A stretch of 59,344 bases of DNA, filler included, from Streblomastix strix (GCA_008636045.1; 3 parts of 3 records of this genome joined end to end with filler, not necessarily neighbours in it), one strand, 5' to 3'; positions 50,137-59,344 are shown, counted from the first letter of the whole stretch. The notes: generated by a model not told the origin, from the letters alone. A program made the numbers and translations.

Positions 50137-50343
50137 CTAAAAAATTATGAATAAAAAAAATAAAATAAATCATAATAAATAAAAAGATAATTTTATAAAG
50201 GAATTTGAAAAGAATTTTATGGATTTTAATAAAATCAATTTTGTATAAAAAACTATAATGATAATAGATAAATAAATAAGAAAACATTATTTGCAAAAAT
50301 AATATTTTTTAAAAATAAGTCGAATAATTATTATCTATAAATA

Positions 50344-51340
50344 ATGAGTGAATAAAAGATAAAATAAAATTAGAAATTTAGATTGTCACTATTCGAGGGT
50401 TAATAGTGAATTAAGTTGATAAAAAATAATAAAAAGCAAAATGATACATAGAAATTATGTGTAAAATTCCTAGACAATGTAGATTTTAATAAATAATTGA
50501 TGTGATTTTTAGAATGGAGACAAAATCAGAAAATTTAATCTATAGTTCTGTAATATAAAATTTATGTATTTTTTGAATAATTATCATCTTAAATTAATTT
50601 CACGAATATTTTTAATTTTTGTTTTATTATTAACACGAAATATTTAGTATAATTTCCAATTAAAGATAAATCAACTAATGAACTTTTAAAGAATAATAAA
50701 TAACTAAAATCCAACTAATTTGTTACCAATATTAGATCAGATGGAGATTCAGCGTTAGGAAGAAAATAAGTTAAAGATTATTTAACAGAGAACAACATAA
50801 AATACTACTTTAATTCATTTTCATTGATCGATTAAAATAAAATAATTAATTTAGTAGCTCGAACTATATGAATTACGTTTGAAAATGATCCTTAACTATT
50901 GACTAATACTTAATAATTATAATTGATTATTGATGATTAAAATATCACAAATCATAATGATTTTCAACAGAAATTCTTGTCGATGTAAGATAATTTCATT
51001 GAAGATTTAGAACGAATATATAATCGGTAGAGGATAAAAGAATTGGCTTACATGAAGGAATTATTAAATAAACATAAATTATAAGATCTAAAGAAACGTA
51101 AAATATTAACTATTCATCTTGATTTGAAAAAAAACCGCTCATGGACTTAAGAAATAGCGTAAATAGTTTAATAAAATAGCAACATTTATGAAATATGAAC
51201 ATGATAATGATGCCCGTGAACTATTGAAACAGAGTAACGATTTTATGATTGTGGAAATACAAATTTGTGATATTCATAATGTTGCAAATGAATTAAGAAT
51301 AATAAAGTAAAAATATATGCAAACATTTATATTAGTTTGA
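50344..51340 (+). pseudogene. Retroviral-type (rve/DDE) integrase, degenerate
   Basis: VTNIRSDGDSALGRKQVKDYLTENNIKYYFNS (from 50722) and NKIINLVARTI match the rve core pattern I.SD.G..F.....L....I / N..VER..RT. Several TGAs and frameshifts; start approximate. Confidence 0.7.
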
Positions 51341-51649
51341 CATTTTTTCTAGAAAAATAAATGGATACTAAAACTTAAAACTTGTTTAAAAAGTAAGAAA
51401 ACCGAAGAAATGTTTTATAGAAAAGCAAGCTTAAGAAATGATTAAGAAATTACGTGGAGACGCAAAGAAGATACAATTTTTAAAATATAAATAATTTAAA
51501 GAATAAATATCTTCTAACTACACAGGACTAATTGATATATTTAATAAATCAATAATAGAAGAAAATATTTTAAAATAAATATCTTTATTAATATTGCCAC
51601 ATTTTTAAGATTGAAACTATTGATTTGGGCTACGCTAATTAGTTTCACT

Positions 51650-52230
51650 TCATTTACGATTTTCATCCTAATTTTTTTTGAATTTAGCTTAAGCTGCTAA
51701 TGTATTCTTCAGTTCTCTATTGGATATATGCATTTTTTTTCTTTTTGGTTGGTTTATTTATTAATCATCTTTCATAGGTTATTTTTTTGGATATATAGAT
51801 TATCATTAATTAATAATTTTATAAGCAAAATCGCTATTTGGGATAAATGGTTTTTCATTTAGTTAGGATTCACTAATTTTAATTCTCAATTTTTTCATCC
51901 AACATATAATAAATTTTTGATTATTAGTATTTTATCTTTTTCAAGTTCTTCTTCTTCTTAATCTTCATCATTTTGTTTCTTAATATCTTATTTGTGAATA
52001 TCGGCTTATGGAGCAAAATCAATTTATTAATCTATATCCTGGGAAACAGGTTATAAATCATCTTAAAGTTATATTTAATAACGATTGAGTCCTCCAAATT
52101 TTTCCATTCTTTCTTCATCACTATCTAAAATATAATGATCTAAGCTAATGATTCAATTTTAGTTGGTTGCCTTAAATATGATTAATTTGATTGGTTATTG
52201 ATGTTAAAATTAATAATATTATTTGCTCAT
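51650..52230 (-). pseudogene. Degenerate hypothetical ORF of the viral remnant (Gln/Asp/Glu-rich, basic C-terminus)
   Basis: ATG at 52230 (MSKQYYQFQHQQP) to ...NTLAAQAKFKKNQDENRK-TGA. Intron-less, with frameshifts. Confidence 0.45.
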
Positions 52231-52259
52231 TTGGGAGATTTCATTCACAAACAATGTAC

Positions 52260-53024
52260 CACTTTTTTTTAATTTCAAAAAAAATTATAATTAATTTATA
52301 AACAAAAATTGATGTAGCAAACATTTACATTTGCATCATATGAAAAATGAAACAAAAATTATATTTTTTTTTTCAACACTGAAAAGTAAATCATATTTTT
52401 AAATTTTAATTTTAAATATTTTTTAAAAATTTTTCAGGTTTAATGAAAGACAATAACTAAAATTTTGGCTGTTTACATTCGTAAAAACCCGATATTTTGT
52501 AATTTGTCGTTAATTCAGCCCATCACATGTTTAATTACTATTATTTTTGTAAAATACTATATTTTCATTTATTTGATAAAAAATTAGTTCAATAAAAAAT
52601 ATAATTTTATTTTTGTTTATATGTGAAATTTTAATTTAATTTTTATACCATAAAATACATGTGAGACTTTTAAGTTAAATTAAATTGAATAATTGTGAAA
52701 TAAAAAAATTAAAGATTATAATTTAAAATTACAGTAATTAAAGTATTTGAAATGGATTGAATATAAAAATGAAAAAACAAAAAAAAAACACGTTTTCACG
52801 AACGTATGCCACTAAAAACTAAGTAACTGTCTATCAATTTATCTGAATTAGTATTAAAAATAAAATATAATAAAAATTAAAAAAATTATTTTAGATGAAT
52901 GATGATAAAAATAAATTTATAATTTTTGCTTAATTTTATTGTGGATGCAAATATAAAAATTTGCAACTCCAGTTATTATTTAAAAATTTATTTTTAATAT
53001 TTTTAAATTTAAAATTTCGAAGTG
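52260..53024. mobile_element. Fold-back element with diverged ~240-bp inverted arms
   Basis: 52290-52500 aligns with the reverse complement of 52780-52995. Examples: GCAAACATTTACATTTGCATC vs GCAAATTTTTATATTTGCATC, and TACATTCGTAAAAAC vs TACGTTCGTGAAAAC. Confidence 0.65.
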
Positions 53025-53061
53025 AATCTATTGAATGGACACATTCATTTGTTTGATTAAA

Positions 53062-56762: not shown

Positions 56763-56899
56763 GTCGCTTGTGAGCGGAACCATCCATATGATGAATAGAT
56801 TGAAAACGGTATAAATTAATATGTAAATTTTTTATCAGCTATTATTTTAATTGATTTAAAAGAATGGTTTTATTAAACAATACATGATAATTAAAATTA

Positions 56900-58646
56900 T
56901 TTTTAGTATGTTACCATTCCATCAGATGTATAACTCAAACTATATTATAACAATCCAAAACGGCTTTTTCAACTATAAGTGAATTCTACTGACACATCAT
57001 CTGCATTAGTACATACATTGGAAGTACGCAATATAATGATTTTTTAATTCCAGCAATTTTTAATTCTCATTTTGCTAATATTAATGATGTTGGCGATCCA
57101 TCCGCAAATAGAATCTATAAATATTTTCCTTTATAAATTTTTTGAATAATTATGCAATAATAAATTCTTCAAATATCGTTATATCAGTAACAGTTTTTTT
57201 GATGATAAATCCATTAATTTATTAGTATTTGAAGTTATTTTTGAACTATCATTATAAATATTTAGTCGAAAACTAAGATCCTTTGTCAGTTAGTACTATC
57301 CTTATTTTACCAATCGACTCTAATTTAATGGTTGCAGAATAAATATTTGCTGTACCTGTTCCAGTATAGGTATGAAATAGTTAAGTTGCACTATTTTGAA
57401 TCTAATAACTAGAACTAAGTTTTATTAGATGGGTGAATTCTCCATTAATAGTAGTGATATCATTAAAGGAGTAATTTGATTACAATCAAATGATTTAAAT
57501 TACAATGATGGATGAATAAACTTTAATTTCTATGAACAGACTATCAACTCTACTACTAGCTGGAAATACACTTAATCTAACCAATTTACTACCTGAATAT
57601 GTTCTTGATAACTTATTATCTAAATTAGTTGTATCACCATTTACGAATATTATTTTAGTTGTTAATCCTCCAGTTTTAATGAACTTAGTAGCACAAATAT
57701 TATCATCATAAGAAAATTATTTTAAATAAGCATGGTCACGTCTAGTGAAAAAGGCTGATGTTCCATTTGCACCAACACCATTAACGATTGGGATATTTGA
57801 AGCATTAGTTTCAACGTTAACTGGATGTGAATGATCGTTTCTAGCACAAGCAGCAGCAGTTCGATAATCCATCAGCTATATCGGATTGCAGAGATGCATT
57901 AAAGGTTTGAATTGGATATTTATTATCAGATCTTGTATAAGTACTAGCAAAATCAATATTTTTTACTGAAGTATCTTTCTGTGGTAAAGTAGTCGCTACA
58001 ATAATGGGATATATATCATCATCACGTGAAGATTAAGCGCATTTTACTGCAGTTGATGTACCATCAGATAATAGAGTAACATCACTTGTAGAAGTTACTT
58101 AATCAGGAACTCTATCTCCACTATTATACCAATTAACTTCGTACATACGTATTGTTCCACTATCTGCGGTAAAAAAATAACTCCAATATCAGAATTAAGT
58201 AAATTTGTTATATCACCGTTAAATAAATAATATTATCGGAAATGAGTTTATCGTAACAATTCGTCATTCTTGTCATCATCATCATTTTTAACATCAGTGA
58301 TATCTTACTCATTTGCTCTATTTGATTTTTATATTTAATTCAATTAATTAATCAACTAATTAATTTATGCATCAAAATCTAAATTTACAACTTTCAAATT
58401 CATTACTGTTAGCAATCCATTATGTTCTATTTATGATGCATATTCTGATGCAATTTCATCAACGATTTAAATATTATCTACATAAATCAAAAAGTTGTTA
58501 TTATCTATGAATAATTGTTAGTCTTTATTTGGCTTTAATCCTTAACTTGAACCACCTAGTTTCTAACACAAAATATATAATGCAATTTCATTGGTGAAAA
58601 GTTAACTAACGGTTCGAATATTTTGTTTCGATAATAAGTTGTTCAT
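56900..58646 (-). pseudogene. Bacteriophage tail-fibre-like protein, degenerate
   Basis: ATG at 58646, a coiled-coil segment, then FTADSGTIRMYEVNWYNSGDRVPDQVT and four ~32-aa repeats ending SRDDDIYP / TRSDNKYP / ARNDHSHP / TRRDHAIQ. These are followed by ATKFIKTGG..IIFVNGD and a later QILFADGS. Frameshifts present; 3' end approximate. Confidence 0.65.
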
Positions 58647-58704
58647 TTCAATAAAAATAAATTGATCGAGTTTCATCACCAACTTTGTTGGCGGGCATAA
58701 ATGC

Positions 58705-58914
58705 TCAACAATATTTATTTTCAAGATGATCAATTGAACCTACGAGGTTAGCTCCTGCACCTAATTCATCTTTAATTGCTGAATGATTAATTAATATTGG
58801 TCTTGATATTTTTGTTAAAACTTTACATAATGCTGATGTGAAACATTATGCTGCTTTTTTAACACCATCTAATACTTTCGACCCAAAATTTGCTATTCAA
58901 GAAAAGAAACCCAT
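58705..58914 (-). pseudogene. Small amphipathic-helix protein, adenovirus pVI-like membrane-penetration candidate
   Basis: 70 codons: MGFFS*IANFGSKVLDGVKKAAQCFTSALCKVLTKISRPILINHSAIKDELGAGANLVGSIDHLENKYC-TGA. The codon-6 TGA is one substitution from GGA. Confidence 0.5.
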
Positions 58915-58919
58915 TTGAT

Positions 58920-59344
58920 TTATTATAAAACTTTTACCATAAACATCCATTCCGTTTCATTAATTTTTGTTTCAATGAAATGTTATTCAATTCTAATGAT
59001 TATCTTGAACACTTAACATAAACACAACATTCGGATTACTTCAGTGAATATACGTGTCTTGGAAGAGTTCATAAAGCATTATCTATCCATCTTCAATCAT
59101 TTGAAATATCAAAGCAAAATTGCTTCGATTTTCCTATTATAAAACTAACATCGTGTGGAGTCATATATACTAGAGCACCATTAGGAGCAAGAGGTAAATC
59201 AGCATGTTCAATGGTATAAACTTGTTAAGTAAATTGGACAATTACAATACCTAAAAATACATTAGCGATATAATTAAATAAAACATATAATGACTGGAAT
59301 ACTGCAGGTAAATTAATCGCACGAACTAATTTCAATGGTAAAGA
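58920..59344 (-). pseudogene. 5'-partial degenerate ORF of the viral remnant
   Basis: QVYTIEHADLPLAPNGALVYMTPHDVSFIIGK...LPRHVYSLKQ...LELNNISLK in one frame with two internal TGAs; intron-less. Confidence 0.45.

What the first reader, a model, noticed from the sequence alone, without database searches (positions are those of the whole stretch)
50340..59344. Endogenous Polinton-like virus remnant in a TAR=Gln host combining integrase, penton-like, pVI-like and phage tail-fibre genes
Seen: about 200 bp upstream of a host gene start, the sequence changes from intron-rich genes to at least eight tightly packed, intron-less, decayed ORFs. They read sensibly only with TAA/TAG=Gln (e.g. PD-TAA-VT in the fibre gene) and end in TGA. 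Known: an rve integrase together with jelly-roll capsid genes is the Polinton/Maverick/PLV signature, and such elements are reported from metamonad genomes. Inference: this is an integrating DNA virus adapted to the host code, whose virion pairs a eukaryotic-virus entry peptide with a bacteriophage-type fibre. That module combination is the best candidate for an undescribed system in this window.
Basis: partly seen in the sequence, partly recalled or inferred. Interest (0 to 1): 0.9.

Follow-up and report, generated by a model that had tools for sequence, protein, structure and literature searches.

The report
Decayed protist virus with phage-like fibre
This is a broken, scrambled remnant of what is likely a known, very abundant integrated DNA virus of a termite-gut protist, written in the host's unusual genetic code; its predicted three-chain attachment fibre shares a module with prophage proteins of gut bacteria and carries swappable tip domains.

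Summary
The fibre piece has 127 relatives; all 120 listed are labelled Streblomastix strix. Such elements are in print: 820 capsid genes in that genome, same code (PMC10120064). The 9 kb is not one intact-order provirus but three blocks split by two old inverted repeats, with a duplicated penton-like piece, a cut fibre and the contig end inside a probable capsid gene. The fibre claim holds: predicted trimer, tailspike-like head, 46-47% identity to prophage proteins of gut Bacteroidales and Bacillota, and 16 head types among 138 copies. The 'pVI' is an amphipathic 65-residue protein with no detectable pVI homology. Integrase, penton and capsid rest on motifs seen by eye; no library confirmed them. 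Phage-like fibres plus an entry factor are already reported for Polinton-like viruses, so the combination is not a new system. The scan noted TAR=Gln viruses before on other DNA. Verdict: new member of a known kind; the gut-phage link and modular heads are the part I did not find described.

The parts
46090..50136 (-). Flanking host gene (context): intact 1.35-kaa secreted or surface protein with a C-terminal hydrophobic anchor
   Evidence: Open frame of 1359 codons under table 6; 40 of 71 Gln codons are TAR; no Pfam hit
50344..51190 (+). Block A: decayed rve-type integrase-like gene (frameshifted, in-frame TGA, catalytic region eroded); identity inferred from motif spacing recalled from Polinton integrases
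   Evidence: Frame supported by codon model at 50650-50950; no hit
51190..51610 (+). Block A: decayed short ORF of unknown function
   Evidence: Six-frame reading; weak codon-model signal; no family hit
51620..52150 (-). Block A: decayed ORF with an acidic stretch, unknown function
   Evidence: no family hit
52267..53014 (.). Old inverted repeat a: arms about 52267-52593 and 52684-53014, 67% complementary, non-coding
   Evidence: 95 bits against a maximum of 45 in 60 shuffles
53045..53620 (-). Block B: decayed ORF of unknown function (not an ATPase)
   Evidence: Codon model favours minus frames; no Walker motifs in six frames; no family hit
53646..53950 (+). Block B: small ORF that precedes the penton-like gene in another copy too
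   Evidence: 53% identical to P0121 residues 1-79
54060..55393 (+). Block B: penton-like (minor capsid) gene, about 440 codons, one frameshift and one in-frame TGA, ends in TGA; identity inferred, not confirmed
   Evidence: 68-70% identical to P0121; fold failed, pLDDT 30; Atlas blank
55428..55980 (+). Block B: Gln/Glu-rich helical ORF; followed by pPolB in another copy, by inverted repeat b here
   Evidence: 47% identical to P0122 residues 57-149; pPolB motifs further along P0122
55978..56762 (.). Old inverted repeat b: arms 55978-56237 and 56502-56762, 82% complementary, (AT)19 at 56385-56422; likely a foldback/MITE relic at a rearrangement breakpoint; no target-site duplication seen
   Evidence: 251 bits against a maximum of 37 in 60 shuffles
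56763..56909 (+). Block C: second, internal fragment of the penton-like gene
   Evidence: 75% DNA identity to 54957-55073; 56-64% to P0121 and P0122
56888..58646 (-). Block C: decayed fibre gene: coiled coil, prophage-shared module, His-rich RxDHxHP repeats, one whole head domain and part of a second; 3' end lost
   Evidence: Homologue mapping; keeps 89 of 138 sites that 40 other copies keep at 90-99%
58700..58914 (-).
   Evidence: About 60% identical to other copies; joined 5' of the fibre in 36 of 245 gene models; amphipathic in intact copies; no pVI hit
58980..59344 (+). Block C: 5' 120 codons of a probable major capsid gene, divergent from the short ORF, cut by the contig end
   Evidence: Open frame, weakly favoured by the codon model; three gene models match its opposite strand; likeness to published Metamonada MCPs seen by eye only; no library hit

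Best explanation
The region is a dead, rearranged patchwork of genes that use the host's TAA/TAG=Gln code and likely come from the Metamonada-type Maverick/Polinton-like viruses already known to fill the Streblomastix genome. Inferred life cycle of the intact virus: an rve integrase inserts the genome, pPolB copies it, an A32-like ATPase packs it into a jelly-roll capsid with pentons; a trimeric fibre on the capsid binds the cell surface through a variable tailspike-type beta-sandwich head, and a small amphipathic protein would break the vacuole membrane. The fibre's N-terminal module and His repeats are shared with structural proteins of gut prophages (shown); transfer from phage to protist virus is inferred. 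After insertion this copy decayed and was cut and duplicated at two foldback repeats.
For: Code. Copy number: 127 relatives of the fibre piece among 1734 candidates, 120 of 120 listed labelled S. strix; 10 of 10 further short hits looked up likewise. Gene order in other copies, read from gene models that run across neighbouring ORFs: small ORF-penton-like-pPolB N-terminus (P0121), penton-like-helical ORF-pPolB (P0122, three pPolB motifs), short ORF-fibre in 36 of 245, capsid-like gene divergent from the short ORF in 3, ATPase beside fibre in a sister subfamily (P0168, Pox_A32 E 0.0015, below cut-off). Fibre: head aligns to C-terminal domains of WceF (Z 10.2, rmsd 3.5, 125 aligned), T4 gp9 (7.2, 3.7, 100) and tailspike gp49 (7.1, 2.5, 96); top BFVD hits are phage tail fibres (best E 6e-10, low TM); three copies of P0009 160-490 score 0.83, best of 3 controls 0.01, contacts agree at least 79%, pLDDT at least 74 (mark reached by 21 of 30 solved pairs, 0 of 23 single chains; 17 of 29 on eukaryotes; may be from memory of like fibres). 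N-module 46-47% identical over 98-127 residues to P0212, P0210 and L032; 8 of 8 such genome loci scanned carry phage families. Literature: 820 MCP genes and same code in S. strix (PMC10120064).
Against: No library or structure confirmed the integrase, penton or capsid. P0122 itself hits no polymerase family; pPolB rests on three motifs. No pPolB, ATPase, protease, terminal repeat or target-site duplication lies in the window. Intact fibres hit no PHROG (0 of 12), no relevant Pfam family and no GenBank phage. Blocks A, B and C are linked to one virus only by adjacency and by the penton-like fragment beside the fibre. The tree gives no direction of transfer. The junction was not tested with reads.
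Confidence: 0.82

Rival explanations
1. The blocks come from two or three unrelated mobile elements piled up at one site, so integrase, penton-like gene and fibre never belonged to one virion.
For: Two inverted repeats separate the blocks; no gene model joins block A to B or B to C; at least two fibre subfamilies with different neighbours exist.
Against: A penton-like fragment sits directly against the fibre in block C; all published S. strix MCPs fall in one cluster.
Confidence: 0.25
2. The breaks are assembly artefacts from collapsing many similar copies, and the true locus is an intact provirus.
For: PMC10120064 section 7 shows such artefacts in other protists (passages).
Against: The window keeps only 89 of 138 strongly conserved fibre sites, other copies 90-99%; the adjacent 4-kb host gene is open; one run's contigs hold 0.73 of the sampled words (may be the source sample, so not independent).
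Confidence: 0.06
3. The region is a bacterial prophage or contaminant joined to host DNA.
For: The best non-host relatives of the fibre are prophage proteins of gut Bacteroidales and Bacillota.
Against: TAR=Gln use; host-labelled copies form one side of a 100/100 branch; only the fibre module matches bacteria; neighbours are pPolB and an A32-like ATPase, not portal or terminase.
Confidence: 0.03

Closest known systems
Metamonada-group Maverick/Polinton-like EVEs of Streblomastix strix and Trichomonas vaginalis (Bellas et al. 2023, PMC10120064; passages and supplement tables S3-S5 in part)
   Same: Same host label on all named close homologues, same TAR=Gln code, high copy number, pPolB and probable capsid gene linked.
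   Different: This copy is decayed and scrambled. The words fiber, tail and pVI do not occur in that paper's main text; its gene maps are figures that I could not see.
PLVs with phage-like fibres: PgVV/Gezel-14T Ltf, Tetraselmis TsV tail fibre, T. vaginalis collagen plus phage-tail-repeat fibres (10.1101/2022.07.28.501842 and 10.1101/2025.10.09.676808, passages; PMC12220804, section 13 part 1)
   Same: A jelly-roll virus with a modular phage-type fibre and a separate membrane-entry factor.
   Different: Different fibre parts: no S74 chaperone, collagen, laminin G or PF12789 hit here; instead a prophage-shared module, His repeats and exchangeable heads. The entry factor is a short amphipathic protein, not a lipase or SLATT.
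Adenovirus protein VI; adintovirus cupiennin-like and pX-like genes; MELD virus 'VI' (PMC8502044, passages and section 10)
   Same: Small, cationic, amphipathic N-terminal helix encoded next to the capsid gene.
   Different: No detectable sequence homology to pVI; about 65 residues against about 250 (size recalled); best PDB match is a frog antimicrobial peptide at E 0.39, not significant.
Uncharacterised repeat-module structural proteins of gut prophages (Bacteroides and Tannerellaceae MAGs, Christensenellaceae, Clostridia; P0164, P0173, P0201, L026-L041) and phage tailspike C-terminal domains
   Same: Coiled coil plus GY..AESGT.W module plus RGDHxHP repeat at 35-47% identity; tailspike-like beta-sandwich head.
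   Different: The Bacteroidales proteins repeat the module 2-8 times along a coiled coil; the protist virus has it once, then 3-4 His repeats and one or more variable heads.

Membership tests
Maverick/Polinton-like virus (Metamonada group) | Double-jelly-roll major capsid protein | tested here: inconclusive
   Only 120 codons before the contig end; likeness to published Histomonas, Trichomonas and Entamoeba MCPs seen by eye through the opposite strand of P0123; no library hit
Maverick/Polinton-like virus (Metamonada group) | Single-jelly-roll penton | tested here: inconclusive
   Conserved ORF; fold failed, pLDDT 30; Atlas blank; C-terminal strand pattern recalled
Maverick/Polinton-like virus (Metamonada group) | rve integrase (or tyrosine recombinase) | tested here: inconclusive
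   Motif spacing by eye; no hit; no intact homologue obtained
Maverick/Polinton-like virus (Metamonada group) | Protein-primed family B polymerase linked | tested here: inconclusive
   Absent from the window; three pPolB motifs in P0122, which continues from the window's block B genes; no family hit for P0122
Maverick/Polinton-like virus (Metamonada group) | A32-like packaging ATPase linked | tested here: inconclusive
   Absent from the window; Walker A/B and Pox_A32 E 0.0015 (below cut-off) in P0168, joined to a fibre of a sister subfamily
Maverick/Polinton-like virus (Metamonada group) | Terminal inverted repeats and target-site duplication | tested here: inconclusive
   Right end is off the contig; left flank has only weak AT-rich matches inside the element; the two internal repeats show no duplication
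Maverick/Polinton-like virus (Metamonada group) | Many genomic copies with conserved local gene order | tested here: met
   (order read from gene models that run across ORFs, not from DNA)
Maverick/Polinton-like virus (Metamonada group) | S. strix elements use the host TAR=Gln code | tested here: met
Adenovirus protein VI | N-terminal amphipathic cationic helix | tested here: met
   Moment 0.44-0.46 over residues 2-34, reached by 0 of 2000 shuffles in each of 3 copies; net charge +3 to +4
Adenovirus protein VI | Sequence homology to pVI | tested here: not met
   No pVI family in Pfam; no adenovirus chain among 5 PDB matches up to E 10; short query, limited sensitivity
Adenovirus protein VI | About 250 residues with C-terminal protease cofactor (recalled) | tested here: not met
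   ORF is about 65-70 codons
Adenovirus protein VI | Processing by a viral cysteine protease | tested here: inconclusive
   One ILGG motif at residue 14; no protease gene found in the window
Phage tail fibre / tailspike | Homotrimeric fibrous shaft | tested here: met
   Predicted only: score 0.83, best control 0.01 (21 of 30 solved pairs, 0 of 23 single chains reach the mark); interface covers residues 183-343, which are unfolded in the monomer model
Phage tail fibre / tailspike | Tailspike-type beta-sandwich distal domain | tested here: met
   Z 10.2 WceF, 7.2 gp9, 7.1 gp49 over model residues 339-485; only the first is above the Z 8 caution line
Phage tail fibre / tailspike | Sequence homology to proteins in phage structural modules | tested here: met
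   decayed window copy matches 8 of 13 long bacterial or unnamed proteins, best E 2e-8
Phage tail fibre / tailspike | Match to a curated fibre family | tested here: inconclusive
   0 of 12 in PHROGs, no relevant Pfam, none in NCBIfam or GenBank phages
Phage tail fibre / tailspike | Present on the virion and binds a receptor | not testable with these tools
   No particles or binding data

The most novel reading that the evidence does not exclude
A protist virus took a fibre module from gut prophages and diversified it into a large repertoire of swappable tailspike-type heads, which let virions dock on the bacteria that coat the host cell (the Bacteroidales coat of Streblomastix is recalled, from no call) as a route into the eukaryote.
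Probability: 0.12. Interest if true: 0.8.

Novelty: new member of a known kind. Interest (0 to 1): 0.38.

Why it matters
The locus itself is one dead copy of a published family. What adds something: Metamonada Polintons remain unclassified because their structural genes are so divergent (10.64898/2026.06.19.733378, passages), and this work names a candidate fibre, entry peptide and penton for the oxymonad branch. The fibre gives an unusually close sequence link (46-47%) between a eukaryotic virus and prophages from the same kind of habitat, and more than a hundred copies with exchanged heads make receptor switching directly testable by computation and binding assays.

Tried and rejected
No whole genome was held, so copies were studied through public gene models only. 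No RNA holder listed. My first readings of 56750-57170 as a protease and of 53050-53950 as an A32 ATPase were dropped: the first is a penton-like fragment plus the fibre on the other strand, the second has no Walker motif and codes on the minus strand. My first reading of 58920-59344 on the minus strand was dropped (two TGA), though the codon model margin is small. Penton fold and Atlas search gave nothing; no fold search was run on that model. IMG/VR held no relative of P0121, P0122, the integrase piece or the short ORF; one weak 21-residue match to the penton piece was not followed. No element gene recurs in the first 50.2 kb of the window. Atlas hits for the fibre outside Preaxostyla scored 0.80 or less, leads only. 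PDB sequence searches gave only coiled-coil or non-significant matches. The tree separates host-labelled from bacterial modules but cannot give a donor (20 of 86 host-side rows kept after dereplication, most labels not checked). Literature searches; none of the listings or passages read describes the S. strix fibre or short ORF; most subscription papers are outside the library, and the Figshare data and gene-map figures of PMC10120064 were not seen.
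Full report
Setting. The window is three contigs joined by N-linkers; the finding lies on the third (39639-59344) and runs off its end. No whole genome was held. An intact host gene ends the left side (open frame of 1359 codons, ATG at 50136 on the minus strand), and the first element ATG is at 50344. One DNA run labelled termite gut metagenome holds 0.73 of the sampled words; it may be the source sample. 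All 120 listed relatives of the fibre piece, of 127 found, are labelled Streblomastix strix, so the host is inferred to be that oxymonad or a close relative.

Code. Among 1562 aligned window sites, 98 face a majority Gln; 64 of them still code Gln and 48 of those are TAA/TAG. Simple C-to-T decay does not explain this: His CAY to TAY is 5 of 16 and Pro CCN to TCN 7 of 35. The host gene uses TAR for 40 of 71 Gln. TGA faces 9 different residues at 10 sites, so it is a stop or damage. The homologues were translated with the same table by their depositors, so the test is partly circular; the independent point is Gln opposite the TAA at 58101 in 9 of 12 alignments with bacterial or unnamed long proteins.

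Anatomy. The 9 kb falls into three blocks. Block A (50344-52150) holds an integrase-like gene and two unknown ORFs. An old inverted repeat follows (52267-53014, 67%, 95 bits against at most 45 in 60 shuffles). Block B (53045-55980) holds an unknown minus-strand ORF, a small ORF, the penton-like gene and a helical ORF. A second inverted repeat (55978-56762, arms 82%, (AT)19 inside) stands where another copy has pPolB. Block C starts with a 150-base second piece of the penton-like gene (75% identical to the first), which meets the cut 3' end of the fibre gene coming the other way; then come the fibre (58646 to about 56890), the short amphipathic ORF (58914-58700) and a divergent ORF from 58980 that is open to the contig end. 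The decay is real: the window keeps 89 of 138 fibre sites that 40 other copies keep at 90-99%.

Other copies. Public gene models often run across neighbouring viral ORFs and so record order. P0121 joins small ORF, penton-like gene and the start of the next gene; P0122 joins penton-like gene, helical ORF and a protein with three pPolB motifs. The short ORF precedes the fibre in 36 of 245 models. Three models match the opposite strand of the last ORF; working out the other strand gives a reading that by eye resembles the Histomonas, Trichomonas and Entamoeba capsid proteins in Table S3 of PMC10120064. That is an inference without a score. In a sister subfamily the fibre sits beside an ATPase with Walker motifs (P0168; Pox_A32 E 0.0015, below the cut-off). 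No model links block A to B or B to C.

What was not confirmed. The integrase piece hit nothing in Pfam, PHROGs, NCBIfam, PDB, plasmids or IMG/VR. The penton-like protein could not be folded (pLDDT 30) and the Atlas gave no usable hit. P0122 hit no polymerase family. No pPolB or ATPase motif, terminal repeat or target-site duplication was found in the window, and I recognised no protease. These labels rest on recalled motif patterns and on context.

The fibre. Intact copies (for example P0009, 743 aa) have a coiled coil, a conserved module, 3-4 His-rich RxDHxHP repeats, an anchor, variable domains and a conserved end. They hit no PHROG (0 of 12), no relevant Pfam family (24 scanned) and no GenBank phage. 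A profile search found 3080 proteins at E 0.001; the best that are not host-like are long repeat proteins, 3 of 10 looked up named Bacteroides or Tannerellaceae and 7 unnamed. The N-module is 46-47% identical to the best of these over 98-127 residues, and the decayed window copy still matches 8 of 13. Of 19 genome loci for this module I scanned 60 ORFs from 8; all 8 carry phage families, such as portal, head protease, tape measure, holin or baseplate. The His repeat alone also lies in tail-gene regions: 6 of 7 loci scanned, of 24 found, have tail or head hits. The monomer model is weak (mean pLDDT 57), with the repeats unfolded, but its head domain aligns to the C-terminal domains of WceF (Z 10.2), T4 gp9 (7.2) and tailspike gp49 (7.1), and the best BFVD matches are phage tail fibres. 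Three copies of residues 160-490 fold together with score 0.83 against a best control of 0.01, contacts agreeing at least 79% and pLDDT at least 74; the mark was reached by 21 of 30 solved pairs and 0 of 23 single chains (17 of 29 on eukaryotes), and the pass may reflect likeness to solved fibres. After the anchor, 138 copies fall into 16 clusters at 40% identity (66, 24, 17, 11, 5 and smaller) and 40 at 60%; faulty gene models may inflate the small ones. The window copy carries the commonest head and part of a second type, as P0007 does. In a tree the 20 host-side modules form one side of a 100/100 branch; no root, so no donor.

The short ORF. Intact copies form a strong cationic amphipathic helix (0 of 2000 shuffles reach the moment of residues 2-34 in each of 3 copies). 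The window's TGA falls at a Gly position, not Trp. No pVI family or adenovirus chain was hit. It may work like the pVI lytic helix; it is not filed as pVI.

Prior work. PMC10120064 (passages; supplement tables S1, S3-S5 in part) reports Metamonada-group capsid genes in S. strix, 820 copies, using the host code. PMC12220804 (section 13, part 1 of 2) describes phage-like fibres across PLVs, T. vaginalis included. The PgVV preprint (passages) finds a T4-like fibre and a lipase in virions. The Tetraselmis preprint (passages) lists a tail fibre in the conserved structural module. PMC8502044 (passages, section 10) labels 'Fiber' and 'VI' on MELD virus maps and describes amphipathic cupiennin-like genes. 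A 2026 preprint (passages) says Metamonada elements remain unplaced. Seven searches showed no description of this fibre family or its link to gut prophages; figures and Figshare data were not seen.

Verdict. A real, decayed and rearranged remnant of a known endogenous virus family. The fibre's close tie to gut prophage proteins and its swappable heads are worth a follow-up. Interest 0.38.

Noticed in passing
window 19724-19823 and 39539-39638: N-TTAATTAATTAA-N linkers join three separate contigs; features on either side are not neighbours.
   Followed up: yes
window 18724-19723: Near-perfect inverted repeat (247 bp, 98%) ending at a contig end; a young foldback element or an amplification or assembly fold-back.
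   Followed up: no
window 11710-13480: AT-rich tandem array of 67-bp units, more than 20 copies, about 88% alike.
   Followed up: no
window 25068-25681 and 32586-33199; 20503-20978 and 33260-33737: Two dispersed duplications on the second contig (95% over 614 bp; 73% over 481 bp), possibly mobile-element relics.
   Followed up: no
window 46090-50136 (-): Large, nearly intronless host gene with a C-terminal hydrophobic anchor and repeats that look like a beta-helix surface protein (likeness recalled); GC 0.36 against 0.24 around it; no Pfam hit.
   Followed up: no
L026, L027, L031 (10 kb around the match): Bacteroides MAG prophage modules with a 945-1540 aa uncharacterised repeat protein between head protease and portal genes; the repeat unit matches no curated family well.
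   Followed up: partly
stored proteins P0048, P0059, P0168, P0232: Gene models join fibre genes to a protein named Fido-domain by its source, a DDE_3 transposase (E 1.4e-8) and an ATPase with a long insert between the Walker motifs.
   Followed up: partly
window 52267-53014: This repeat lies wholly between genes with a 90-bp spacer, so it could be two viral terminal repeats back to back rather than a MITE; unresolved.
   Followed up: partly
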